In this document: positions 723 to 59,862 of the stretch, piece after piece
How the letters are laid out: each line of letters begins with the position of its first letter
How positions within the stretch are numbered: the first letter of the stretch is position 1
Translations under genes and position numbers: made by a program
Assembly: GCA_043818555.1 (NCBI GenBank)
Contig: JBDRFP010000019.1
Location: 1-59,862, forward strand
DNA from: a bacterium
Lineage (GTDB): Bacteria > Patescibacteriota > Patescibacteriia > UBA9934
DNA: 59,862 nucleotides
Reading direction: 5' to 3'
Notes under the pieces: model-generated
The model's database searches: none
The model's input: only the letters and a program-made list of their open reading frames with translations
What the model was told of the DNA's origin: nothing

Positions 723-764
723 ATTCGTTCCCCCCTTTTCAAGGGGGGATTAAAGGGGGGTTAG
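723..764. repeat. K-family C/G-tract hairpin element, copy 1
   Basis: attcgttccccccttttcaaggggggattaaaggggggttag. Near-identical to 25568-25610, with an inverted copy at 25650-25690. Confidence 0.7.
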
Positions 765-25567: not shown

Positions 25568-25690
25568 ATTTCGTTCCCCACTTTTCAAAGGGGGATTAAA
25601 GGGGTGTTACTTGCTTTTAAGCGCTCCGCGATCGCATATCGGTAAACGCTAACCTCCCCTAACCCCTCCTTGAAAAGGAGGGGAGAACAT
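25568..25690. repeat. K-family elements, inverted pair (copies 2 and 3)
   Basis: 25568-25610 reads atttcgttccccacttttcaaagggggattaaaggggtgttac. 25650-25690 is the same element inverted (taacctcccctaacccctccttgaaaaggaggggagaac). Confidence 0.7.
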
Positions 25691-27387: not shown

Positions 27388-27397
27388 ATTTTGTGAT

Positions 27398-27539
27398 TAA
27401 TGACCAAGGCCCGAATAACCAACCCCCAATAAATTCCCAATGTCCAATCCTCCAATTTTCGATCACACGCCAGTGCCCATCAATTGGTCATTAGGTATTG
27501 GATATTCATTGGTCATTGGGTTCTTGTGAATTGGTCATT
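27398..27539. repeat. A-family CCAAT/ATTGG palindromic element, copy A1
   Basis: The left arm is rich in ccaat words. The right arm is caattggtcattaggtattggatattcattggtcattgggttcttgtgaattggtcatt, which is conserved in A2-A5. Confidence 0.8.
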
Positions 27540-27625
27540 TTTACTTTCTCCCATTATGCCACGAATCGTCAGTTGGTAAAAGTCGGACATCATTAAAACC
27601 CCCAACGCGAGGTCGGAGGTTTTAA

Positions 27626-27822: not shown

Positions 27823-28470
27823 ATGGATGATATGAGTAAGCCAAAGGGTAAAGTGAAAATTGAGTGGTCCCCTAATTTTGCGTATGCTATTGGATTATTG
27901 GTAACTGACGGTAGTCTGTCGTGCGATAGGCGTCATATTGACTTTACATCTAAGGACATCGAACTCATTAATCACATACAAAAAGCGCTCTGTATCCAAA
28001 ACAAGGTTGGCACAAAGGGTAGTGGACCTGATAAAACAAATAGATACTTCCGAGTCCAAATTGGCGACGTGTTGTTCTATCGATTTCTTGAAAAGACAGG
28101 TCTGACGCCAAACAAATCAAAAACCATCTCCGCGATTCAAGTTCCAAATGAATATTTTTTCGACTTCTTGCGTGGGTGCCTTGATGGCGATGGATGTTTC
28201 TACTCTTATTGGGATATGCGCTGGAGGTCAAGCTTTATGTTCTACACGGTATTTTGCTCTGCAAGTAAAGCGCACATAAACTGGCTGCAACAGGAAATCG
28301 AAACGCGCCTTAGAATCAAGGGCCATGTCTCCAAGGCTAAATCGCAATCAGTGTACCAGCTTAAGTACGCAAAGGCTGAGACCTTGACACTTTTACCTGT
28401 TTTGTATTATTCTTCTGACGTTCTCTGCTTAACGCGCAAACGCGAAAAGATAGAAAACGTGTTAGCTTAA
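27823..28470 (+). CDS. free-standing LAGLIDADG homing endonuclease
   Basis: Two LAGLIDADG motifs (YAIGLLVTDGSL and FLRGCLDGDGCF), giving a double-motif monomeric enzyme. ATG at 27823 is preferred. Lies between tRNA-Val and tRNA-Leu. Confidence 0.85.
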   Translation: MDDMSKPKGKVKIEWSPNFAYAIGLLVTDGSLSCDRRHIDFTSKDIELINHIQKALCIQNKVGTKGSGPDKTNRYFRVQIGDVLFYRFLEKTGLTPNKSKTISAIQVPNEYFFDFLRGCLDGDGCFYSYWDMRWRSSFMFYTVFCSASKAHINWLQQEIETRLRIKGHVSKAKSQSVYQLKYAKAETLTLLPVLYYSSDVLCLTRKREKIENVLA

Positions 28471-28476
28471 TAGAAA

Positions 28477-28563
28477 GCGCGAGTGGTGAAATTGGTATAC
28501 ACGCCAGCTTGAGGGGCTGGTGGGAGCAATCCCGTGGAGGTTCGAGTCCTCTCTCGCGCACCA
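28477..28563 (+). tRNA. tRNA-Leu (anticodon GAG)
   Basis: Class II tRNA with a long variable arm. Acceptor gcgcgag/ctcgcgc, anticodon loop ttGAGgg, encoded CCA. Confidence 0.9.
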
Positions 28564-28680
28564 TTCGAAAATCTCAGGCATAGCCCTCGATTTTCTCATG
28601 GCAAGCCATAAGGCCTGAGATTTTCGAATGTCCTGAGGATTCCGAAGTCTACGACTGAGAAATCCGAGGGACAGAAAGTC
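28564..28680. repeat. L-family trailer with nested inverted repeats (gaaaatctcagg words)
   Basis: A 16-bp perfect inverted repeat (28564-28579 / 28613-28628) interleaves with a second one (28584-28597 / 28657-28670). The first ~47 nt recur after tRNA-Leu(CAG) at 54678-54725. Confidence 0.75.
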
Positions 28681-30008: not shown

Positions 30009-30018
30009 GTTCAAAATT

Positions 30019-30130
30019 TCCAATTACCAAGTAACCAATGACCAATGAATCCCCAATGCGCAATGGCCAATTGGAGATTGGGTATTGGATATTCATTGGG
30101 AATTGGGCGATTGATCATTGGTCATTATCA
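30019..30130. repeat. A-family element, copy A2
   Basis: ccaattaccaagtaaccaatgaccaatgaatccccaatg .. attggatattcattgggaattggg..gatcattggtcatt. The right end supplies the last codons and the stop of the bactofilin gene. Confidence 0.8.
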
Positions 30131-33746: not shown

Positions 33747-33767
33747 AGTTTTCTGTAAACGTTGAAT

Positions 33768-33874
33768 TTCCAATGACCAAGTAACCAATTCCCAATGAAC
33801 TCCCAATATTTAATTCTCAATTGGACATTGCGCGTTGGTTATTCATTGGTTATTGGGTTCTTGTGAATTGGTCA
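33768..33874. repeat. A-family element, copy A3
   Basis: tccaatgaccaagtaaccaattcccaatgaactcccaat .. caattggacattg..attcattggttattgggttcttgtgaattggtca. The right end contains the valS stop codon. Confidence 0.8.
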
Positions 33875-36532
33875 TTTAGGCAAATTGCTTATCTCGTCTT
33901 TGATTTTAATCGCCTGCTCTTTTGCCTCTGCCAGTCTTTCTTTGTCTGCTTCAACAACATCGGCGGGAGCATTCTTTACAAAGTCCTCATTGCCAAGCTT
34001 CTTTTCTAATGATCCCATGTATTGCTCTACATCTGCAAGTTCTTTTTCCAGTTTCTTTCGCTCAGCGGCAAAGTCAACCAGGTCTCCAAGAGGAATGTAA
34101 ATCTGAACCGAGCCGACAACCATTGCAACCGATCCGTCCGCACGCGCAACTTTGTCTTCAAATGTTAATTCACCGGCCTTGGCGAGCGTTTTAATAACCT
34201 GTTCATGATCCTTAAGATCGCCACCGTTTGAGATGATTACATCGACCTTCTTTCCGGGCGTTACCTTGTAGCGAGCGCGAGCGTTACGGATTGCGCCTAC
34301 AACACCTTGAAGCTGATCAAACGCTTCACGGTCAGCCTTTTTGAGCTTTGCTCCTACCTCCGGCCACTTTGCGACAATTAACATCCCGGAATCAAACTGC
34401 TTGTAGATCTCCTCAGTAACAAACGGCATAAACGGATGCCACATAACAAGCAGCCGCTCCAGAATGTAGAGCAAAATCTTATCGTTTGACTCACCAATTT
34501 GAGTCTTGGCAATCTCCACATACCAATCCGCAAACTCACTCCAAGTAAAATCGCGAAGCATTTCGCCCGCGAGCGAGAACTCATACTTTTCCATGTGCTC
34601 GGTGACTTTTTCGACAACCTCTGAGAATCGTCCAAGTATCCAGCGGTCAGCGAGCGTGACAGCTCCTACGTTTTCTACGGCTCCTACATTTTCTACGTTC
34701 ATGAAAACAAAACGAGAAATATTCCACAGCTTGTTTGTGAAATTCCTAAAACTGTCAATTTTGTCCTGCGATAGTCTTGTGTCGTTTCCCGGAGTCGACC
34801 CTATCATCAACGCCAACCTTGTAGCGTCTGCGCCAAACTTTTTAACGCTATCGAGCGGGTCAACCACATTATCAAGCGACTTGGACATTTTTCTCCCCTG
34901 CTCATCGCGAACAAGCCCGTGCAAATACACCTGGCGGAAAGGAACTTCGCCAGTGGCATAAGTTGTCATTAAAATCATTCGTGCAACCCAGAAGAAAATA
35001 ATATCGTAACCAGTTTCCAAAACATTATTTGGATGGTAAAGGTTGAAATCTTCAGAATCGTTAGGCCAGCTCAAAGTTGAAAAAGTCCAGAGCCCGGAAC
35101 TAAACCACGTGTCCAGTGTATCCGAATCTTGTTCCCATCCTTCGCCCTCAGGAGATTCAACGCCAACATACACTTCATCGTTCCTGTACCAAACCGGAAC
35201 TCTGTGTCCGTACCAAATCTGACGACTAATGTTCCAATCGCGCAAGTTATCAATCCAGTGGAAGTATGTTTTGTTAAACCTGTCAGGGATTATTTCAATC
35301 TGATCCGTGCGCACAACATGCTGCATGAGTTCTTTGAGCGTAACATTCTGACCGTTTTTGATCCCCTCAATTGGCGAATGCTTTGAAGCTCGGAATTTGA
35401 ACGGCTTGTTAACATCAATAAACCACTGAACCTTTGGAAGCGGCTCAACAGCAGTGCCACAGCGGTAGCAGATCGATAAATTCTGAGGCGAATCTTCAAC
35501 AGATTCCATTAGCCCTTGCGACTCGAGCCAGTCGACCACTTTGGACCTAGCTTCCTCAACGGTTAGTCCGTTAAAGTCTTCTCCCGCTCGATCTGTCATT
35601 AGTCCGTCTTCACCGATCACTTTGATAAATCCCAAATTATTTTTTCGAGCCATCTCTTCATCTATCTTGCTATGAGCTGGCGTAACTCCAAGCGCGCCCG
35701 TTCCAAACTCAGCACTCACTTCTTCGTCTGCGATCACCTTAATCGTGAGCGGGCCTCCGGCAAACTCAACATTGAACTCTTTACCAATAAATTCTTTGTA
35801 CCGCTTGTCGGTCGGATTGACAGCAACCGCAGTGTCACCAAGCTTCGTTTCCGGTCGAGTCGTTGAAATTGAAATCGGAAAATCTTTGTCGTATTTAAAT
35901 GTGTAGAGCTTAGCTGTTTTCTCTTCGTGCTCAACCTCATCGTCAGCTAGTGTTGACTTACAACGCGGGCACCAGTTAATAACTCGGTCACCGCGATAAA
36001 TCAAACCGTCGTCATACATCATTTTGAAAACCGTCCGTACCGCAAGCGACCTGGCGTCATCGAGCGTGTATGCCTCCCGAGTCCAATCAAGTGACGCTCC
36101 CATCTTCTTAGTTTGATGGATGATGGTGTCGTGACTTTCAGACGCAAACTTCTCAACTCGCTTCAAAAACTCTTCACGTCCAAGCTCGTGCCGAGGATCT
36201 TTCATGCCGTCAGCAATAAGCAGCTTCTCAACCTTTGCCTGAGTTGCAATGGCGGCATGGTCGGTTCCGGGAATCCACAAAGCGCGCTTCCCTCGCAGAC
36301 GCGCAAAGCGAATCATTGCGTCTTCAATGGCAAGCATTACCGCATGGCCAATGTGAAGCGTGCCGGTAACATTTGGTGGTGGCAAAACAATGGTAAACGC
36401 CTCAACCCGATCTTTAAGATCTGGCAGGTTCTCAGGAGTAAAATACCCGCTCTTCTCCCAAGCGGCGTAAATCTTGTCTTCAATCTTCCCTGCGTCAAAA
36501 GACTTAGGGATAGCGCTTTTGTCTTCAGTCAT
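33872..36532 (-). CDS. valS: valine--tRNA ligase
   Basis: HIGH (TLHIGHAVMLAIED), KMSKS (KMSKSLDN), the CP1 editing region and a C-terminal coiled coil. ATG at 36532. Confidence 0.95.
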   Translation of the reverse strand: MTEDKSAIPKSFDAGKIEDKIYAAWEKSGYFTPENLPDLKDRVEAFTIVLPPPNVTGTLHIGHAVMLAIEDAMIRFARLRGKRALWIPGTDHAAIATQAKVEKLLIADGMKDPRHELGREEFLKRVEKFASESHDTIIHQTKKMGASLDWTREAYTLDDARSLAVRTVFKMMYDDGLIYRGDRVINWCPRCKSTLADDEVEHEEKTAKLYTFKYDKDFPISISTTRPETKLGDTAVAVNPTDKRYKEFIGKEFNVEFAGGPLTIKVIADEEVSAEFGTGALGVTPAHSKIDEEMARKNNLGFIKVIGEDGLMTDRAGEDFNGLTVEEARSKVVDWLESQGLMESVEDSPQNLSICYRCGTAVEPLPKVQWFIDVNKPFKFRASKHSPIEGIKNGQNVTLKELMQHVVRTDQIEIIPDRFNKTYFHWIDNLRDWNISRQIWYGHRVPVWYRNDEVYVGVESPEGEGWEQDSDTLDTWFSSGLWTFSTLSWPNDSEDFNLYHPNNVLETGYDIIFFWVARMILMTTYATGEVPFRQVYLHGLVRDEQGRKMSKSLDNVVDPLDSVKKFGADATRLALMIGSTPGNDTRLSQDKIDSFRNFTNKLWNISRFVFMNVENVGAVENVGAVTLADRWILGRFSEVVEKVTEHMEKYEFSLAGEMLRDFTWSEFADWYVEIAKTQIGESNDKILLYILERLLVMWHPFMPFVTEEIYKQFDSGMLIVAKWPEVGAKLKKADREAFDQLQGVVGAIRNARARYKVTPGKKVDVIISNGGDLKDHEQVIKTLAKAGELTFEDKVARADGSVAMVVGSVQIYIPLGDLVDFAAERKKLEKELADVEQYMGSLEKKLGNEDFVKNAPADVVEADKERLAEAKEQAIKIKDEISNLPK

Positions 36533-39943: not shown

Positions 39944-40017
39944 GAATCATCGACCGCTCGGCGTAGTCCCCAATCCCATGCAAGCACAGGATTGGGAGAC
40001 GGATGTCGGAGAGAGCG

Positions 40018-40611
40018 CTAGGAGTCGCCCTTGGTCGGGCCGGTCAGGAGCGGGATCCGTTTCTGTCCGTCGATCGCCCGCTTACGCAGGTTCTCGCTGG
40101 GCGAGAATCGAACCAGAACCTTGTGCTCAGCCAAGTCCAGCTCAGCGTTGCCGTCGGTCCAGAGGCCGGTTCCCTCCATCTTCTCAATGACCATCCCGAG
40201 CGCCATCACCTCGGAATATCGGAGGTTGGGCCTCGGTGGAATGAAGTCCTGGACTTCGATCTCCACGTACTGCTCGGTCGGAACCCACTCGCGCATGATT
40301 GTCACGCTCACATACGCGATCATCTTCTCGGCCATCTCCTTCACCTCTTCCTGCAGCTGGCGCCGCCTCCACAGTTCCTTGATGGCAGGAGCCACCAGGA
40401 GCATCTGGATCACCTCATCGAAGATGACGAGGGTGAGGAAGTCCCAGATATGGCTGAGCCCGGGGATAAGACCCATGAGCTCAAGGGCGATGAAGATGAT
40501 TGCGTTGATGAAGATCCACGTCTGAAGCGCAGCAGTAGACCTCTGCTTCCAGAATTCAGTAGCCACCCAGGCCACGAACTCCCTGGCGTTCTCTTTTGCA
40601 CTTGGCGCCAT
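40018..40611 (-). CDS. hypothetical membrane protein, 197 aa (cassette I5, gene 2)
   Basis: ATG at 40611 lies 5 nt after AAGGAGG. Two N-terminal TM helices are followed by a soluble C-domain. Codons are GC3-rich. No family recognised. Confidence 0.7.
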   Translation of the reverse strand: MAPSAKENAREFVAWVATEFWKQRSTAALQTWIFINAIIFIALELMGLIPGLSHIWDFLTLVIFDEVIQMLLVAPAIKELWRRRQLQEEVKEMAEKMIAYVSVTIMREWVPTEQYVEIEVQDFIPPRPNLRYSEVMALGMVIEKMEGTGLWTDGNAELDLAEHKVLVRFSPSENLRKRAIDGQKRIPLLTGPTKGDS

Positions 40612-40665
40612 TGGCACCTCCTTTTTTTTGTTTTGAATTTTTGACTCCGCTAAATTGTCGACGAT

Positions 40666-40705
40666 GTCACTTGGTGCCGGACGATGTAGTCCGACACCGA
40701 GTGAC
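40666..40705. promoter_or_regulatory. 17-bp inverted repeat upstream of I5 gene 2, paralogous to 39887-39943
   Basis: gtcacttggtgccggac and gtccgacaccgagtgac match at 15/17. The flanking gactccgct..gtcga and gacgaat.gtcgac..ctcggc blocks are shared with the other module. Confidence 0.6.
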
Positions 40706-40730
40706 GAATTGTCGACTTCTCGGCAGAGAC

Positions 40731-40748
40731 CTGGAGCGGCCGCTCCAG
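40731..40748. repeat. perfect 18-bp palindrome ctggagcggccgctccag
   Basis: Read directly from the sequence. Lies in the I5 gene 1 / gene 2 intergenic region. Confidence 0.9.
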
Positions 40749-40880
40749 ATACTCAGCGGTTCTGGGAAGAACTTATTGAAGTGTCGATTCTGCAATCAAC
40801 CTCTCAATGAGTTCCCCGTACCAGACTTCCAGCTTGCGCTAGAAATGGGTACGGGGACGCTTTAACTTGAAGGAGCGGGG

Positions 40881-41900
40881 CTAGACGAACGCGCCGTCGA
40901 CGGACTGCCACCAGGACCGGGGCCGGCGGCCGCCTTCGTGGCGAGCCCACTGAGGACCGCGCCAGTTGCGCTCGACGGGCTTGCGAGACCCGTCGTCGCT
41001 GCAGTACTCCAGCTCGCGCTGGCGCAACTGCTCGGAAACGATCTCGGCGTCGAGCATGCGCTCGATTGCCTCGATCGTGTCCTCCACGATGACCTCGGGA
41101 TTGTGCCTCAGCCGACCGAAGTCGACGCCGAAGTCGTAGTCCCAGAGCTCGTCGGGCTCGTAGTCGTAGTCCTCGTCCAGGTCGTAGTCGTCCCACTCGA
41201 GGGCTCTGTCGAGGACATAGTCCTCGTCGTCGTCCAGGGCGTTGAGCGCTTCACAGCAGGAGTCGCGTCGCGACTCCTGCTGCAAAAGCGTCTCTTCGGC
41301 CTCGTAGTCCCATTCCTCGGCTTCGGCTTGCGCCTTGGCCTCGGCCTCCATGTCCTCGAAGACGGCCCAGGGGTCGGTGTCCTCGATCATGTCGGCGTTG
41401 GGCTCGACGCGGATACGAGCGCCCTTGTGGCGGGCCCACTGGGGACCGCGCCAGTGTCGCTCGGCCGGAGGGTCATCGCACTTGCCCTCCCACTGACTGT
41501 TCCGCTCGTCGAGCTTGCGCTCGGCTCGAGCAGAGAGTCGACGCTCGATGTCGTCGATCTCGGCCTCGCAGTCGTCGTCTTCGCTCTCCTCGTACATGTC
41601 GGCCATGTCGTTGTAGCGGTCGAGGCCGTGGTCTTCGTACTCATCGCTGTCGTCCCAGACTTCGATCTCCTCGTCGCTCGGCGCCACCATGTCCTGGTAG
41701 TGATCATTGAGCATGTGGAAACCGACTTCATCGATCGGGATCCAGTTGCGCTCCGGGTCGTCGACGCGCATGTCCTCGGACGGACCCAGGAGGTTTTCCC
41801 AGGCCCAGTCTTCGAGGTCAAGTGCGTTGGCATCGCCAACGGGCAGCGCCCCGGACTCGGACGAATGGAACTCGCGGCCTTCTGCTCCAGAATTGAGCAT
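40881..41900 (-). CDS. highly acidic repeat protein, 339 aa (cassette I5, gene 1)
   Basis: ATG at 41900 lies 7 nt after AAGGAG. GC3 bias is strong. Asp/Glu/Trp-rich, with a duplicated ER(H/N)WRGPQWARH(K/E)G motif. The ORF-track extension to 42083 is a translated A-repeat. Confidence 0.75.
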   Translation of the reverse strand: MLNSGAEGREFHSSESGALPVGDANALDLEDWAWENLLGPSEDMRVDDPERNWIPIDEVGFHMLNDHYQDMVAPSDEEIEVWDDSDEYEDHGLDRYNDMADMYEESEDDDCEAEIDDIERRLSARAERKLDERNSQWEGKCDDPPAERHWRGPQWARHKGARIRVEPNADMIEDTDPWAVFEDMEAEAKAQAEAEEWDYEAEETLLQQESRRDSCCEALNALDDDEDYVLDRALEWDDYDLDEDYDYEPDELWDYDFGVDFGRLRHNPEVIVEDTIEAIERMLDAEIVSEQLRQRELEYCSDDGSRKPVERNWRGPQWARHEGGRRPRSWWQSVDGAFV

Positions 41901-42044
41901 GTCCTGTCTCCTTGGTTGTTTTTTTATTGAAGTTAAGAAAACTATTTTGACTCTTTTACAAGCCATGTTTGTGGTCTTTCTAAAGCCGCAATCATGGATT
42001 GTAAATGCTATCTGTTTGGGAACCGACCGATACAATGTAGCTAA

Positions 42045-42153
42045 TGTCCAATCCCCAATTATCAATTCCCAATGAATTCCCAATTCCCAATCTCCAATTG
42101 GTCATTGTGCATTGGATATTCATTGGTTATTGGGTGCTTGTGAATTGATCATT
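42045..42153. repeat. A-family element, copy A4
   Basis: tgtccaatccccaattatcaattcccaatgaattcccaattcccaatctccaattggtcattgtgcattggatattcattggttattgggtgcttgtgaattgatcatt. Confidence 0.8.
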
Positions 42154-42420
42154 TAATGAGCCAACAAAATGCCACACTTTGGCTCTTCTGATGGAGAAAG
42201 CGGTTTATGCCTAATCACAGAAAGCCCAAAATGTGGCTTTTTCTTACAGCCCGATGAAATCAGGCTAACTCTCTCCCCAGAAAGTATTGAATTGTAAGCT
42301 TCAATTTAACACTAATACTATACCACATTTTGACGATTTTGTCAAGACCTAAACCTACTGAATTCCGCCAAACTTAGCAAAATTAACTTTACTAATCCTA
42401 GCCACTTTTCAGCCCAACGA

Positions 42421-42629: not shown

Positions 42630-42810
42630 GGTGCTTAGCCGAATATGCATATATTATCAATATTTCTACTAATAATAGCGCTGACCTTGGAATTCAAGGG
42701 ACTGCGCACAAAAGACTGGGATTTTATTTATGGCGGTATGGCTTTGTTTTTTGCCGCTGTGGGTACTGGTATGATTAGCTTATTCATTTTCCAAACACTT
42801 TACTAAAAGT

Positions 42811-43116
42811 ATGCCTAGTGGTACAACTTCGAAAAGGCTACATTACACCTATGTACTTCGGAGTAACAAAGACGGTAAAAACTACGTAGGCTACTCTCCT
42901 TTATTGCTGAGCGCCTTTTACAGCATAGCTCAGGAAAAGCTGTATCGACGCAACACAGAAGGCCGTTGAAGTTGATTTATCTAGAGGTATGTTTATCCAA
43001 GGTTGACGCCCTGCGTCGTGAGAAGTATTTAAAAACCACCGACGGGAGAAAATTCTTGTCCAAACGTTTAAAAGATTACTACGGTCCACACACTAATTCG
43101 AAGTTGTCCCACTAGG
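42811..43116 (+). pseudogene. GIY-YIG nuclease gene, frameshifted
   Basis: Relative to 52042-52353 it has 19 substitutions and one 1-nt deletion (ctctgcc to ctctcc), by hand alignment. The frame runs into TGA after about 53 codons. Confidence 0.75.
42814..43116 (+). mobile_element. TIR-bounded GIY-YIG element, copy 1 (decayed)
   Basis: 20-bp terminal inverted repeats cctagtggtacaacttcgaa / ttcgaagttgtcccactagg (19/20). TATG is present on both flanks (42810-42813 and 43117-43120). Confidence 0.75.
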
Positions 43117-43117
43117 T

Positions 43118-43549
43118 ATGGAAGACGCCCTCGGCTATACGCTGTTGGTAACCATGTTCTGGTTTCCAATATACTGGATATTCGGCGGCGTCTTTTTTGC
43201 TACTGTAGCGATCTTTAAAATCATCAAGTTACGCAAAGCCCGATTCAGTTGTTTGTTCACAGTGCTAACCGCCGGAGCAGCCTACGCAGCAGCGCGCGCC
43301 GGAATGATGTATGGCGAGCGGCAAATAACCGAATGCCTGGAACAAGCTGACGGATTCTTCAATGCGATCGCCAGTGTAATTGCATGCGGGGTTCTAGAGC
43401 TGTCACTCGCCGGGCTTGTAGGATTCCTGCTGTTGCTAGTTGCCGGTTTTGCAGCTTTGTTTGTATCGCGCTCAGGAAACGGTTCATGGATTGATGCTGA
43501 CTTTGGCCTGAAGCAAGAAGTGGCAGAGGAGATTGAGTTTGAGGAATAA
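43118..43549 (+). CDS. hypothetical membrane protein
   Basis: 143 aa with 4 TM helices and an acidic C-terminus. Its ATG is part of the right-hand TATG flanking the GIY-YIG element. Confidence 0.6.
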   Translation: MEDALGYTLLVTMFWFPIYWIFGGVFFATVAIFKIIKLRKARFSCLFTVLTAGAAYAAARAGMMYGERQITECLEQADGFFNAIASVIACGVLELSLAGLVGFLLLLVAGFAALFVSRSGNGSWIDADFGLKQEVAEEIEFEE

Positions 43550-57958: not shown

Positions 57959-58009
57959 GTCCTATAGGTCAAATTTATCCAATGGGACCTATTTCAATAT
58001 AAAGCCTGC

Positions 58010-58038
58010 TTGACAAAGCGGGTTTTATATTTTAGACT
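58010..58038 (+). promoter_or_regulatory. sigma70-like promoter of cassette I7
   Basis: TTGACA (58010-58015), 17-nt spacer, TAGACT (58033-58038). The -35 element lies in the loop of the trpS terminator-like hairpin aaagcctgc..gcgggtttt. Confidence 0.5.
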
Positions 58039-58110
58039 CTCCCTATCGCCCTCCCGGGGGAAGGCGATACAACGGTCAGTCCCCAACAACCAGCTGCAAA
58101 AGGTGTAGTA

Positions 58111-58743
58111 GTGGAAACCTCCCGCCAACCTCCCGCCTCCTCATTCGATGGAGGCTCGACCGCTTCTCCTGGCCACCCGGCCACAGCCCCGCGTTCATTG
58201 CGCCATACGCAAACGCCCCGAGACCGCCGCGATGTGCTCTCCAAGGCCATCCGCGACAAGATCGGCGACGGCGCGAAGATCGACTGCAAGACCGGGGCCA
58301 TGCTCGCGATCACGGTCAAGATGGTCGAGCTGTTCGGCTACGACGGGAAAAGCATGGATGCGCTCGAAACCTTCGCCGATCGCGCAATGGGTCACGAGTT
58401 CAGGAACCTGGACGAATTCGCCAGTGCTCTCCCCGACCTCGGCCCGGCGCAGGCCCTGGTGCTCAAGAACCGACTTCATGTCCTGCCCGCAACCGAACCT
58501 GGCAGCGTGCAGGCCGCAATGGCAAACTTCGTCGAGAGGTTCGCCGTGCGGTACCCTGACGCCATCGCCCTTTGGGAGCGCGCACTCGACCGCATCGCAA
58601 GCGGCGAGATCGCCAACCACGCCGCGCTCGCGAGGGCGCTGCCCGTGTACTTCCAGAACACGTGCCTGGCAGATGGAGAGCTCACTGCCGCAAGCAGCCG
58701 CGCCTTTCACGGCAACGGCCGCAAGCTCCAGTCTCTGATCTAG
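58111..58743 (+). CDS. hypothetical protein, 210 aa (GC-rich cassette I7)
   Basis: GTG at 58111 follows AAGGTG. Among three overlapping long ORFs, this frame has the strongest GC3 bias. A terminator follows. No family recognised, and the start is uncertain. Confidence 0.6.
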   Translation: METSRQPPASSFDGGSTASPGHPATAPRSLRHTQTPRDRRDVLSKAIRDKIGDGAKIDCKTGAMLAITVKMVELFGYDGKSMDALETFADRAMGHEFRNLDEFASALPDLGPAQALVLKNRLHVLPATEPGSVQAAMANFVERFAVRYPDAIALWERALDRIASGEIANHAALARALPVYFQNTCLADGELTAASSRAFHGNGRKLQSLI

Positions 58744-58761
58744 CCGACCCGCTCGGCACCC

Positions 58762-58790
58762 GTGCCCCCAGACGCAAGTCCGGGGGCATT
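58762..58790 (+). terminator. terminator of cassette I7
   Basis: gcccccagac-GCAA-gtccgggggc hairpin followed by atttatt. Confidence 0.7.
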
Positions 58791-58795
58791 TATTA

Positions 58796-58824
58796 TTGAC
58801 AAAATCGACCAAATATGCTATTAT
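58796..58824 (+). promoter_or_regulatory. rnpB promoter
   Basis: TTGACA (58796-58801), 17-nt spacer, TATTAT (58819-58824). This places the TSS about 7 nt downstream, at the 5' strand of P1. Confidence 0.6.
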
Positions 58825-59014
58825 TCACGAGTTCAGGAAACAAGACAATCGCTTCAAGCTTGGCTTGATGAGGAAAGTCCGAACACCGCATGCGTGGTAA
58901 CGCGCATGTAAAAAAGAGCGTTGCTAACGGCAACCGGGCGAGTGTAATTTGAGGAATTAGATCTATTCCTTGATAGCGTGAAGCCTAGGGAAAGTGCCAC
59001 AGAGACAATACTAA

Positions 59015-59165
59015 CCAGTGCTTCGCACTGGAATGATCAATGACCGAATATTCAATCTCCAATGAATACCCAATGTTTAATAACCAATGAAAATTGGGAA
59101 TTGAGAATTGGAAATTCATAGAGAATTGAAACTTGGAAATTGGACATTCCGATGCGGAGCATCGG
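59015..59165 (+). repeat. A-family-derived insert 1 inside rnpB (P12 position)
   Basis: 151 nt, bounded by the hairpins ccagtgc-ttc-gcactgg and ccgatgc-gga-gcatcgg. The core consists of ccaat / attgg words. Confidence 0.85.
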
Positions 59166-59317
59166 TGAAACGTGAAAAGTTCGATGGTGTCGCTTGCGGC
59201 TACATCGATCGCCCCGTGGTGACGCGGTGGCGTGGTAAACCCACTCTGGTGAAAGAGCAAATTTGGTAGCTCGATTGAGGCGTCTGGCAACAGGCGTCCT
59301 AGACAAATGATTGTCAG

Positions 59318-59468
59318 CCAGTGCTTCGCACTGGAATGCTCAATGACTAAACATCCAATCTCCAATGAATCCCCAATGTCCAATAACCAATTAAGATTGG
59401 GAATTGAGAATTGGAAATTCATTGGGAATTGGAACTTGGAAATTGGACATTCCGATGCGGAGCATCGG
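59318..59468 (+). repeat. A-family-derived insert 2 inside rnpB (between the P2 and P4 3' strands)
   Basis: 151 nt, with 13 substitutions and no indels relative to insert 1 (hand alignment). It shares ccaatgaatccccaatg and attcattgggaattgg with intergenic copy A2. Confidence 0.85.
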
Positions 59469-59508
59469 CCTACAGAATTCGGCTTATTCGTTTCCTGAAC
59501 ATCAAAAA

Positions 59509-59535
59509 AACTCACGCAAGTGAGTTCTTTTGTTT
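59509..59535 (+). terminator. rnpB terminator
   Basis: aaaaaactcac-GCAA-gtgagttcttttg. Confidence 0.7.
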
Positions 59536-59540
59536 ATAAA

Positions 59541-59574
59541 GAAATTCCCCACACCTTCTTGCGAAGGTGTGGGG
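59541..59574 (-). terminator. terminator of cassette I8
   Basis: ccccacaccttc-GCAA(rc)-gaaggtgtgggg is a 12-bp stem, followed by aatttcttt on the minus strand. Confidence 0.75.
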
Positions 59575-59590
59575 AAGAGAACGCAGGAGA

Positions 59591-59862
59591 TCAGGTCACA
59601 GGTACTACTACACTCCCGCGGGAGACAACGCCATCGCACGAGTTCCTGACCTCAACGTGATTGGCGCTTAAGCTAGGCTGCGAGAAGCCGAACCAGCCCG
59701 CGTCGGGCGCGCTGACCTCGTCGTAACGCGAGCCTGGCAGATCTACGCCATGGTGTCGGAGAACTTTCTCGTGCTCAACCGGCAGGTGGAGGCCTTCGCA
59801 GGTAACGAGTCCATACTCGTCGTCCGCGTGGTTGTCCATCCACCAGGCGACCGTGTGGTCGG
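59591..59862 (-). CDS. hypothetical protein, N-terminus possibly outside window (GC-rich cassette I8)
   Basis: The frame stays open to the window edge beyond the ATG at 59839. Codons are GC3-rich. The stop at 59591 is followed by the terminator. No family recognised. Confidence 0.55.
   Translation of the reverse strand, partial: DHTVAWWMDNHADDEYGLVTCEGLHLPVEHEKVLRHHGVDLPGSRYDEVSAPDAGWFGFSQPSLSANHVEVRNSCDGVVSRGSVVVPVT

What the first reader, a model, noticed from the sequence alone, without database searches (positions are those of the whole stretch)
58829..59503. RNase P RNA nearly doubled in size by two 151-nt copies of the genome's CCAAT/ATTGG repeat element
All hallmarks of a type-A RNase P RNA are present and pair correctly: P1, P2, P4 with GAGGAAAGUCCGAA / ACAGAAUUCGGCUUAU (including an AA/UU covariation relative to E. 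coli GG/CC), GUGCCACAGAGACAA, GGUAAACCCAC, and P18 with a GCAA loop. The gene spans ~675 nt, whereas the usual size is ~330-400 nt.

The excess is two insertions of exactly 151 nt (59015-59165 and 59318-59468). They differ by only 13 substitutions and no indels. Each is bounded by a 7-bp hairpin at both ends (ccagtgc-ttc-gcactgg and ccgatgc-gga-gcatcgg) around a long imperfect ccaat/attgg palindrome. They share 16-17-nt identical strings with intergenic A-family copy A2. Removing both leaves ~373 nt.

Insert 1 occupies the P12 position. Insert 2 sits between the 3' strands of P2 and P4, close to the catalytic core. From memory, some lineages have helix P19 at that position.

One substitution pair looks compensatory (tTcaat/attgAa versus tCcaat/attgGa). 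The only precedent I know is STRR repeats in P12 of heterocystous cyanobacteria. A repeat element landing twice in an essential ribozyme, once next to the core, is unusual.
Basis: partly seen in the sequence, partly recalled or inferred. Interest (0 to 1): 0.8.

Follow-up and report, generated by a model that had tools for sequence, protein, structure and literature searches.

The report
RNase P RNA gene with two IVS-like inserts
The RNase P RNA gene of an uncultured Uhrbacteria (CPR) bacterium really carries two 151-nt hairpin inserts, and these have the same conserved "capped hairpin" design as inserts found in 23S rRNA and other RNase P RNA genes of related bacteria, so the essential ribozyme is probably made as a long precursor that is trimmed or cut into pieces.

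Summary
Rfam RF00010 aligns end to end at 58833-59502 (126 bits). Two 151-nt insertions (59015-59165, 59318-59468) differ by 13 substitutions and no indels. One sits at P12 and one at P19.

The organism is a Candidatus Uhrbacteria (Patescibacteria/CPR). rnpB from 18 relatives is about 360-520 nt and lacks these inserts, so they are not ancestral helices.

The interpretation needs revision. Only the inner 117 nt belongs to the genome's dispersed CCAAT/ATTGG palindrome family (71-81% identity to five intergenic copies). The two 17-nt terminal hairpins, CCRRYGC-TTC-GCRYYGG and CCGAYGC-GGA-GCRTCGG, are absent from the intergenic copies.

The same two caps bound AT-rich palindromic inserts in three other CPR-like rnpB genes (P12, P12, P16/17). 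They also occur at variable-helix tips of 23S rRNA genes, including the classical IVS sites in helices 25 and 45. All instances have the same orientation relative to the host RNA.

The inserts are therefore members of a capped, IVS-like cassette class that has not been described in the papers I could search. The best mechanistic reading is inferred, not shown. The gene is co-transcribed from its own promoter to its terminator. Each insert folds as an independent rod at a peripheral helix. The AU-rich rod is probably excised, as in 23S IVSs and the Thermodesulfatator indicus P12 expansion.

The parts
58796..58824 (+). sigma-70-type promoter of rnpB (TTGACA, 17-nt spacer, TG-TATTAT)
   Evidence: Matches 11 of 12 consensus positions with an extended -10 TG. 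It lies 8 nt upstream of the covariance-model start.
58833..59502 (+). RNase P RNA gene (rnpB), bacterial type A, 670 nt including the two inserts
   Evidence: RF00010 at 126 bits, E 3.1e-38, model positions 1-367. It is syntenic with rnpB downstream of trpS in Uhrbacteria relatives.
59015..59165 (+). Insert 1: capped palindromic cassette replacing the P12 hairpin
   Evidence: Placed in P12 by the covariance model. Relatives have a 5-20 bp P12 at this site. Folds alone at -62.5 kcal/mol, z -9.6.
59015..59031 (+). 5' cap of insert 1 (CCAGTGC-TTC-GCACTGG)
   Evidence: A 7-bp hairpin flush with the host sequence ACTAA. The same cap type is present in 15 other instances.
59032..59148 (+). 117-nt core of insert 1, a member of the dispersed CCAAT/ATTGG palindrome family
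   Evidence: 71-75% identical to the five intergenic copies, in register.
59149..59165 (+). 3' cap of insert 1 (CCGATGC-GGA-GCATCGG)
   Evidence: Flush with the host sequence TGAAACGTGAAAAG (J12/13).
59318..59468 (+). Insert 2: capped palindromic cassette at the P19 position (between P2-3' and P4-3')
   Evidence: Placed by the covariance model. Relatives have 0-18 nt here, often a 7-bp hairpin with a GCAA loop. Folds alone at -68.6 kcal/mol, z -9.1. Caps are at 59318-59334 and 59452-59468; the core is 59335-59451.
59509..59535 (+). intrinsic terminator of rnpB
   Evidence: 7-bp stem with a GCAA loop, followed by CTTTTGTTTA.
27396..27541 (.). uncapped intergenic copy of the CCAAT/ATTGG palindrome (about 25-nt filler in the centre)
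30012..30128 (.). uncapped intergenic copy (117 nt)
   Evidence: lies between co-directional minus-strand ORFs
33762..33878 (.). uncapped intergenic copy (117 nt)
42039..42155 (.). uncapped intergenic copy (117 nt)
51752..51993 (.). uncapped intergenic copy split by a filler of about 120 nt at the palindrome centre

Best explanation
The locus is the functional type-A RNase P RNA gene of a Candidatus Uhrbacteria (CPR) bacterium. The native short P12 and P19 hairpins have each been replaced by one copy of a 151-nt 'capped hairpin cassette'.

A cassette has three parts:
- a 17-nt GC-rich 5' hairpin (CCRRYGC-TTC-GCRYYGG);
- an AT-rich palindromic interior, here the genome's own 117-nt CCAAT/ATTGG repeat;
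- a 17-nt 3' hairpin (CCGAYGC-GGA-GCRTCGG).

The same caps, in the same orientation, bound inserts in other CPR rnpB genes and at variable-helix tips of CPR 23S rRNA genes, including the classical helix-25 and helix-45 IVS sites. The inserts therefore belong to an IVS-like class that colonises structural-RNA genes. They are not a chance landing of an ordinary intergenic repeat. The two copies most likely arose when one capped unit was copied within the gene.

How it works (inferred):
- The whole 670-nt gene is transcribed from its own promoter to its own terminator.
- Each cassette folds on its own into a rod of about 60 bp that projects from a peripheral helix, so the catalytic core can fold normally.
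- The AU-rich distal rod is then probably removed by a double-strand-specific or AU-specific RNase. The precedents are 23S IVSs cut by RNase III and the T. indicus P12 expansion.
- This would leave a two- or three-piece RNase P RNA. Its new ends would be clamped or protected by the GC-rich caps, either as a cap-cap duplex or as two terminal hairpins that block RNase J and 3' exonucleases.

Shown: gene identity, insert anatomy, homology, absence in relatives, the cap class, orientation bias and cap covariation. Inferred: excision, fragmentation and the role of the caps.
For: - Gene identity and insert positions. Promoter and terminator bracket both inserts.
- rnpB of 16 relatives is 358-517 nt, and two more have P4-to-P4 distances of 327 and 332 nt. 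P12 is short and P19 is 0-18 nt in relatives.
- The cores are homologous to five intergenic copies that lack caps. CCAAT clusters are absent from 20 relatives' loci.
- Cap class: 16 instances (about 13 distinct), flush with host RNA sequence. They occur in rnpB of L017/L179 (P12), L182 (P12) and L106 (P16/17; RF00010 85.8 bits, E 1.9e-26). They also occur in 23S rRNA genes confirmed by Rfam LSU.
- The 5' cap was not part of the search pattern, yet it is present in every CPR-type instance.
- Local cap hairpins are paired in 100% of 182 cells. Four pairs covary, and 0 of 500 shuffles reach this.
- All 15 instances tested have the TTC-loop cap 5' and the GGA-loop cap 3' on the host RNA's sense strand, although both strands were searched. 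The sense RNA folds better than the antisense in 13 of 15, by about 8 kcal/mol on average. This points to an RNA-level constraint.
- Precedents: short non-intron inserts at CPR 23S IVS sites are 'probably IVS cleaved by RNase III' (PMC11270868). The T. indicus P12 expansion, with a GC-rich lower stem and an A/U-rich distal part, is excised in vivo and gives a fragmented but functional P RNA (PMC9945441). E. coli M1 RNA has been reconstituted from halves split in P12 (cited in PMC9945441).
- RNase J is encoded in the window.
Against: - There are no transcript data, so excision and fragmentation are entirely by analogy. The rods could simply be retained.
- No RNase III gene was seen in the sequence held, but this is only 60 kb of the genome.
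- A 34-nt 3' fragment carrying the P4 3' strand would have to stay bound through P1 and P4 only.
- The 3' cap was fixed by my search pattern, so its conservation is partly ascertainment, and cassettes with divergent 3' caps were missed.
- RNAfold prefers the cap-cap duplex to local cap hairpins by about 6 kcal/mol. Covariation favours the local hairpins. The cap conformation is therefore unresolved.
- The perfect self-complementarity of each cap could instead reflect DNA-level recognition.
- The window sequence comes from one metagenome contig only.
Confidence: 0.6

Rival explanations
1. The inserts are retained. They are permanent expansion segments, and the mature RNase P RNA is a single molecule of about 670 nt with two long rods projecting from P12 and P19. 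The caps serve only as GC clamps that nucleate independent folding of the rod and insulate the core.
For: P12 and P19 are peripheral helices of variable length (PMC12974513). Each insert folds autonomously with z about -9. All 13 substitutions between the copies preserve the rod. Large helix extensions have been noted in CPR P RNAs (PMC8172020). From my own knowledge, cyanobacterial STRR-containing P12 helices are retained and the RNA is active (Vioque 1997).
Against: Sister cassettes sit at the 23S helix-25 and helix-45 sites, where IVSs are excised in other bacteria (PMC11270868). The only experimentally studied long AU-rich P12 expansion is excised (PMC9945441). A mere GC clamp would not need conserved sequence, conserved loops or self-complementarity within each cap.
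Confidence: 0.35
2. The 151-nt unit, hairpins included, is simply the genome's dispersed mobile repeat, and it landed twice, independently, in rnpB.
For: The cores are homologous to the intergenic family, and seven copies lie in 60 kb.
Against: None of the five intergenic copies has the caps, and cap heptamers occur as hairpins only in rnpB. The two rnpB copies are far closer to each other (89% core, identical caps and length) than to any other copy (71-81%). The caps are shared with inserts whose interiors are unrelated, in other genomes.
Confidence: 0.15
3. The caps act at the DNA level. They would be recognition hairpins or palindromic binding sites of a transposase or homing enzyme (for example an IS200/IS605-type or RAYT HUH enzyme, or a GIY-YIG nuclease) that moves the cassette. 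The RNA consequences would be incidental.
For: Each cap is a perfect 7+3+7 palindrome with covariation, as in REP and IS200/IS605 end hairpins. The same 19-mer forms a REP-like family in many high-GC metagenome contigs. GIY-YIG genes lie next to two uncapped repeats. Recurrent occupation of the same site (P12 in three lineages) fits site-specific homing.
Against: There is no conserved target tetranucleotide 5' of the left end and no target-site duplication. Orientation is strictly the same relative to the host RNA, and the sense strand folds better. No transposase gene was seen near any instance. The cassettes replace host hairpins rather than simply interrupting them.
Confidence: 0.2
4. The extra helices are ancestral, lineage-specific elements of Uhrbacteria RNase P RNA, or the locus is a pseudogene or an assembly artefact.
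For: The window is a single metagenome contig. Contigs often break or mis-join at repeats.
Against: Eighteen relatives lack the inserts. Sister taxa L015 and L016 lack the cassette that L017 has. Both inserts are flanked on both sides by correct rnpB core sequence, and they differ at 13 positions. All conserved core regions, the promoter and the terminator are intact. The L017 cassette is reproduced in a second record, L179.
Confidence: 0.03

Closest known systems
Intervening sequences (IVS) of bacterial 23S rRNA (helices 9, 25 and 45; excised by RNase III without religation), and the short non-intron 'ISs' reported at the same sites in CPR 23S rRNA (Tsurumaki et al. 2024, PMC11270868)
   Same: Both are extended stem-loops that replace the tip of a host helix. 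Both are distributed sporadically among close relatives. They occupy the same sites: sister cassettes of the rnpB inserts sit in the H25 and H45 tips. Neither has an ORF or an intron signature.
   Different: The host here is RNase P RNA, not rRNA. The conserved 17-nt hairpin caps and the sharing of one cassette type between 23S rRNA and rnpB are not described in that paper, which has no occurrence of 'hairpin', 'palindrom' or 'RNase P'. Excision has not been shown here.
P12 expansion segment of Thermodesulfatator indicus RNase P RNA (Schencking et al. 2023, PMC9945441)
   Same: Both are long P12 extensions with a stable lower stem and an A/U-rich distal part inside an otherwise canonical type-A RNA. 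In T. indicus the segment is excised in vivo, giving a fragmented, functional P RNA. That is the behaviour predicted here.
   Different: T. indicus has a single expansion, with no reported relation to dispersed repeats or to rRNA inserts and no capped architecture. Here there is a second copy at P19, which would give three pieces.
STRR heptanucleotide repeats in helix P12 of heterocystous cyanobacteria (Vioque 1997, NAR 25:3471; reference seen in PMC2858038, content from my own knowledge)
   Same: In both, a genome-wide short repeat builds a longer P12. The arms here show a weak heptamer periodicity, ATTGGAA/CCAAT (TRF score 42), which recalls STRR1 (CCCCAAT).
   Different: STRRs are tandem heptamers without caps, are restricted to P12 and belong to a different phylum. 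Here the unit is a discrete 117-nt palindrome with conserved caps, and it is also present at P19.
Prokaryotic MITE- or REP-type palindromic repeats (for example ERIC, Correia elements, RPEs)
   Same: The uncapped 117-nt CCAAT/ATTGG copies are dispersed intergenic imperfect palindromes, often between co-directional genes.
   Different: No target-site duplication or transposase was identified. The capped derivatives are confined, as far as seen, to structural-RNA genes and share their caps across genomes.
Diverged RNase P RNAs of CPR genomes (Lui et al. 2021, PMC8172020)
   Same: That work reports CPR P RNAs with 'large extensions of helices' and models that score below Rfam thresholds. The L106 rnpB behaves this way.
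   Different: It gives no analysis of what the extensions are, and makes no link to repeats or to rRNA inserts.

Membership tests
Bacterial RNase P RNA, type A (Rfam RF00010) | Covariance-model score at or above the gathering threshold, over the full model | tested here: met
   126 bits against 100, model positions 1-367, E 3.1e-38
Bacterial RNase P RNA, type A (Rfam RF00010) | Conserved core: P4 strands GAGGAAAGUCCG / ACAGAAnnCGGCUUA, the J11/12 sequence ACAGAGA, and P1-P18 paired as in the model | tested here: met
   Alignment. The same motifs are invariant across 17 Uhrbacteria rnpB.
Bacterial RNase P RNA, type A (Rfam RF00010) | Catalytic activity on pre-tRNA | not testable with these tools
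   Needs an in vitro or complementation assay.
rRNA-type intervening sequence (IVS) | An extended stem-loop that replaces the tip of a host helix and is absent from close relatives | tested here: met
   L017 compared with L015 and L016
rRNA-type intervening sequence (IVS) | Located in 23S rRNA at helix 9, 25 or 45 | tested here: not met
   The window's inserts are in rnpB. Sister cassettes with the same caps are in 23S H25 and H45 tips.
rRNA-type intervening sequence (IVS) | Excised from the primary transcript by RNase III without religation | not testable with these tools
   No transcript data. No RNase III motif in the held sequence, which is uninformative.
Dispersed palindromic repeat / MITE | Multiple dispersed homologous copies in the same genome | tested here: met
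   Five intergenic copies plus two cores in 60 kb, 71-89% identical
Dispersed palindromic repeat / MITE | Target-site duplication at the insertion | tested here: not met
   The flanks are TAA|..|TGA and CAG|..|CCT, with no duplication.
Dispersed palindromic repeat / MITE | A cognate transposase in the genome | not tested
   Only 60 kb of the genome is available.
IS200/IS605-type PATE or REP/RAYT element | Hairpins at both ends | tested here: met
   7+3+7 hairpins at both ends, 100% paired in 13 instances
IS200/IS605-type PATE or REP/RAYT element | A conserved target tetra- or pentanucleotide immediately 5' of the left end | tested here: not met
   The left flanks differ: TAA, CAG, TAG, CTG, AAG, GCG, CAT and others.
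Cyanobacterial STRR insertion in P12 | Tandem heptanucleotide repeats | tested here: inconclusive
   Only a weak period-7 signal (71% matches, score 42) inside a palindrome
Group I / group II intron | A match to the intron covariance models | tested here: not met
   Only sub-threshold miRNA-precursor (generic hairpin) hits at E<=1
T. indicus-type excised P12 expansion | A long P12 with a stable base and an A/U-rich distal part | tested here: met
   GC-rich caps and a 65-70% AT interior
T. indicus-type excised P12 expansion | Excision in vivo | not testable with these tools
   Needs northern blots, RACE or RNA-seq.

The most novel reading that the evidence does not exclude
The two conserved caps define a dedicated, sequence-specific 'safe-insertion' cassette of CPR bacteria. 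A single cellular activity would recognise the cap pair in transcripts of any structural RNA (23S rRNA, RNase P RNA, possibly others) and remove the interior. The caps would remain as end-protecting hairpins or a clamp. Essential RNAs such as RNase P RNA would then exist naturally in three pieces, and genome-specific palindromic repeats could ride inside the cassette without harm.
Probability: 0.3. Interest if true: 0.85.

Novelty: new variant of a known kind. Interest (0 to 1): 0.66.

Why it matters
RNase P RNA is an essential, ancient ribozyme. A natural gene carrying two 151-nt foreign hairpins, one of them between P2 and P4, tests how much peripheral load or fragmentation the fold tolerates.

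The link found here matters more. The same capped cassette occurs in rnpB and at the 23S rRNA IVS sites of several CPR lineages. This suggests that one mobility or processing system underlies the unusually insertion-rich structural RNAs of CPR bacteria.

It also gives a concrete sequence handle, the two 17-nt caps, with three uses:
- finding all such inserts;
- correcting rnpB and rRNA annotation in CPR genomes, where models fall below threshold;
- looking for the responsible nuclease.

Finally, it predicts a second natural case, after T. indicus, of a fragmented bacterial RNase P RNA, and the first in three pieces.

Tried and rejected
- An exact-protein look-up of the window's TrpRS to find the source contig or sister strains found nothing on record.
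- The closest relative by TrpRS (81% identity, L201) is a 2.2-kb contig that ends before any rnpB. The order in which the two inserts were acquired could therefore not be dated.
- The next relatives, L202 and L203, have insert-free rnpB.
- Rfam at the gathering threshold missed the L106 rnpB. A permissive search recovered it.
- A permissive Rfam scan of the inserts gave only generic miRNA-hairpin hits, which rules out introns and known motifs.
- The IS200/IS605-type target rule and target-site duplications were examined and not found.
- An RNase III signature motif was not found in the held sequences. This is uninformative.
- I considered the cap sequences as the native P12 stem of the lineage. 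I rejected this because the same caps occur at P19, at P16/17 and in 23S rRNA.
- I considered a bulge-helix-bulge motif of the archaeal intron type. I rejected it because the cap-cap duplex has only 1-nt symmetric mismatches 10 bp apart.
- Vioque 1997 could not be opened.
- Most of the 120 metagenome pattern hits belong to an unrelated-looking high-GC REP-like family and were set aside.
Full report
**1. Observation**

The Rfam scan of the whole window gives one RNase P hit. RF00010 (bacterial class A) matches 58833-59502 on the + strand at 126 bits (gathering score 100), E 3.1e-38, covering model positions 1-367.

The alignment shows the conserved P4 strands, the J11/12 sequence ACAGAGACAA, GGUAAACCC and P18. 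It also shows two long unaligned insertions. The first is in the apical part of P12. The second lies in the stretch between the 3' strand of P2 and the 3' strand of P4, which is the P19 position.

The two insertions, 59015-59165 and 59318-59468, are both 151 nt. They align without gaps and differ at 13 positions. Both begin with CCAGTGC-TTC-GCACTGG and end with CCGATGC-GGA-GCATCGG.

Each folds alone into one hairpin of about 60 bp. The energies are -62.5 and -68.6 kcal/mol, with z-scores of -9.6 and -9.1 against dinucleotide shuffles. Of the 13 differences:
- five are in unpaired positions;
- one pair is compensatory (38/115, U-A to C-G);
- three are wobble-compatible;
- none breaks the rod.

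A near-consensus promoter (TTGACA, 17-nt spacer, TG-TATTAT; 58796-58824) lies 8 nt upstream. An intrinsic terminator (59509-59535) follows directly. Both inserts are therefore inside one transcription unit.

The only corrections are 670 nt rather than about 675, and 368 nt rather than about 373 without the inserts.

**2. Organism and relatives**

The upstream genes are a family-5 solute-binding protein, RNase J and TrpRS. The TrpRS places the window among Candidatus Uhrbacteria (Patescibacteria/CPR). The best identity in one-genome-per-species contigs is 70%, and 81% in the large protein collection.

rnpB lies downstream of trpS in these relatives. Sixteen relatives have RF00010 hits of 358-517 nt. 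Two further relatives have P4-to-P4 distances of 327 and 332 nt.

In the alignment of 17 rnpB sequences, P12 of relatives is a short hairpin of 5-20 bp. It sits directly between ...ACAGAGACAATACTA(G/A) and (T)GAAA(C/G)GTGAAAAG. The P19 position holds 0-18 nt, often a 7-bp hairpin with a GCAA loop.

The window's inserts are therefore not ancestral helices. At both sites a native short hairpin has been replaced.

**3. Relation to the dispersed repeat**

The window contains five other CCAAT/ATTGG palindromes, at about 27396-27541, 30012-30128, 33762-33878, 42039-42155 and 51752-51993. Their unit is 117 nt, which is exactly the length of the insert interiors (59032-59148 and 59335-59451).

The interiors align with them in register. 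Identity is 71-81%, and alignment scores are 40-58 against 6-8 +/- 2.5 for shuffles. None of the 20 relatives' loci has such clusters, so the family is specific to this genome.

The 17-nt terminal hairpins are absent from all five intergenic copies. The cap heptamers form hairpins nowhere else in the window. The two rnpB cores are closer to each other (89%) than to any other copy.

**4. The caps define a wider class**

One relative, L017, has a 100-nt P12 with the same architecture. It reads CCGGCGC-CCC-GCGCCGG, then a 66-nt unrelated caag/cttg palindrome, then CCGACGC-GGA-GCGTCGG. Its sister taxa L015 and L016 have a 17-nt P12. L017 is reproduced in a second record, L179.

I scanned metagenome contigs for TTCCGAYGCGGAGCRTCGG. 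Many hits are a high-GC REP-like family with the form CTCGTT-CCGACGC-GGA-GCGTCGG-AACGAG.

A low-GC subset has the hairpin at the 3' end of an AT-rich palindrome. In every such case a 5' hairpin, CCRRYGC-TTC-GCRYYGG, sits at the other end. That 5' hairpin was not part of the search pattern.

The hosts of these cassettes are:
- 23S rRNA genes, confirmed by Rfam LSU hits. From the flanking conserved sequence, read against my memory of E. coli 23S, the sites are the tip of helix 25 (L107, L168, L169/L184, L186), the tip of helix 45 (L126, L174), the helix-63 region (L091, L152), near nt 200 (L088) and near nt 630 (L136).
- Two more rnpB genes. L182 has a 104-nt cassette in P12, at exactly the same junction ACTAA|CC...GG|CTAAAGGTGAAAAG. 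L106 is a 617-nt rnpB (85.8 bits, E 1.9e-26) with a 115-nt cassette at the P16/P17 tip.

The interiors range from 28 to 138 nt, are 60-79% AT, and are unrelated between genomes.

**5. What the caps tell us**

I analysed 13 distinct instances. The two local cap hairpins are paired in 100% of 182 cells, with compensatory changes at four pairs. In the 5' cap, 3/15 is G-C or A-U, 4/14 is G-C, A-U or G-U, and 5/13 is U-A or C-G. None of 500 shuffles reaches this.

The alternative is a cap-cap duplex that continues the rod. It is paired in 90.8% of cells, with recurrent mismatches at 13/38 and 14/37. One caveat applies: the 3' cap was fixed by the search pattern.

RNAfold prefers the duplex by about 6 kcal/mol. 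Both conformations are therefore plausible, but the self-complementarity of each cap is clearly maintained.

All 15 instances tested have the same orientation relative to the host RNA, although both strands were searched. The sense RNA folds better than the antisense in 13 of 15, by about 8 kcal/mol on average.

I found no conserved target sequence and no target-site duplication. The inserts match no Rfam family beyond generic hairpins.

Together these results favour a constraint acting on the transcript. A DNA-level role for the palindromic caps is not excluded.

**6. Mechanism**

*Shown.* The gene is intact and expressed as one unit. The inserts are autonomous rods at P12 and P19. P19 is a helix of variable length stacking on P2 (PMC12974513).

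*Inferred.* The AU-rich rods are removed after transcription. The grounds are:
- Sister cassettes sit at the classical 23S IVS sites, where RNase III excision without religation is the rule. Tsurumaki et al. [quoted passage not shown]
- The only long AU-rich P12 expansion studied experimentally, in T. indicus, is excised in vivo and leaves a fragmented, functional P RNA (PMC9945441).
- Ribozyme activity has been reconstituted from M1 RNA halves split in P12 (cited in PMC9945441).

The caps would then do one of two things. They could clamp the pieces as a GC-rich duplex of about 20 bp. Or they could form terminal hairpins that protect the new 3' and 5' ends from exonucleases. RNase J is encoded next door.

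The main rival is simple retention of the rods as expansion segments. I put excision at roughly 50-55% and retention at 35-40%.

**7. Origin of the two copies**

The two copies have identical caps and identical length, and they are each other's nearest relatives. No capped copy exists elsewhere in the window. One capped unit copied from one site to the other is therefore more parsimonious than two independent landings of the uncapped intergenic repeat.

How a cassette replaces a host hairpin is unknown. The recurrence at P12 in three lineages with different interiors suggests either site-specific homing or exchange by recombination through the invariant flanks.

**8. Comparison and novelty**

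Several components are already known: IVSs in 23S rRNA, short non-intron inserts in CPR 23S rRNA, helix extensions in CPR P RNAs (PMC8172020), STRR repeats in cyanobacterial P12, and the excised T. indicus P12 expansion.

Three points are absent from the papers I could search:
- the conserved two-cap architecture;
- its sharing between rnpB and 23S rRNA across CPR lineages;
- a double insertion, including P19, that nearly doubles a bacterial rnpB, with an interior recruited from the genome's own dispersed palindrome.

I therefore rate this as a new variant of a known kind, of moderate to high interest.

**9. Limits**

- The window is a single metagenome contig.
- Only 60 kb of the genome was seen.
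- The cassette census depends on an exact 19-mer and was truncated at 120 hits.
- 23S helix assignments rest on my reading of conserved flanks.
- There are no expression data.

Noticed in passing
window 42807-43120 and 52038-52352: Two 93-94% identical repeats of about 315 nt encode a 103-aa GIY-YIG protein (PF01541, E 5e-12). Each lies just downstream of an uncapped CCAAT/ATTGG palindrome (42039-42155 and 51752-51993). This may be a mobile GIY-YIG cassette associated with the repeat family.
   Followed up: partly
window 51812-51931 and 27456-27480: Two intergenic CCAAT palindromes carry unrelated filler exactly at the centre of the palindrome, about 120 nt (GC-rich) and about 25 nt. The apex of the hairpin may itself be an insertion site.
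   Followed up: no
window 58001-58800, 40001-42000 and 59540-59862: GC-rich islands (58-60% against about 48%) flank rnpB and another repeat copy. The 210-aa ORF 58111-58743 has no Pfam hit. It has a 33%-identical, also GC-rich, 201-aa homologue at the same place after trpS in the closest relative, L201.
   Followed up: partly
L081-L200 (for example L084, L100, L110, L123, L171, L181): Many high-GC metagenome contigs carry a REP-like hairpin with the same 19-mer as the CPR 3' cap, extended to a 13-bp stem (CTCGTT-CCGACGC-GGA-GCGTCGG-AACGAG). It is often preceded by a second hairpin, GGGACGC-RGA-GCGTCC. L110 and L181 have tandem 122-nt arrays of it. Any relation to the CPR caps is unknown.
   Followed up: partly
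L106 3358-3974 (- strand): This 617-nt rnpB scores below the Rfam gathering score (85.8 against 100). Besides the capped cassette at P16/17, it has a 57-nt P3 extension, almost no P12, and an uncapped insert of about 100 nt at P19.
   Followed up: partly
L099 about 590-680: In a low-GC contig, a GGA-loop cap is followed 23 nt later by a TTC-loop cap (GCGGCGC-TTC-GCGCCGG) in an apparently intergenic position. This may be a cassette, or two cassette ends, outside an RNA gene.
   Followed up: no
window 59396-59451 (and the arms of both inserts): The arms of the palindrome show weak heptamer periodicity (ATTGGAA, about 8 copies, TRF score 42; CAAT spacing of 7, 7, 11, 7). This recalls the cyanobacterial STRR1 unit CCCCAAT.
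   Followed up: partly
window 724-763 and 25570-25609; 28469-28608 and 54583-54722: Two other repeats are present. One is a 40-nt G/C-run hairpin-like repeat (93% identical). The other is a 140-nt duplication (81% identical) that includes a tRNA gene and its flank.
   Followed up: no
window 59545-59576 (- strand): A strong 14-bp terminator-like hairpin on the minus strand lies immediately after the rnpB terminator. Together they form a bidirectional terminator region between rnpB and the GC-rich downstream segment.
   Followed up: no
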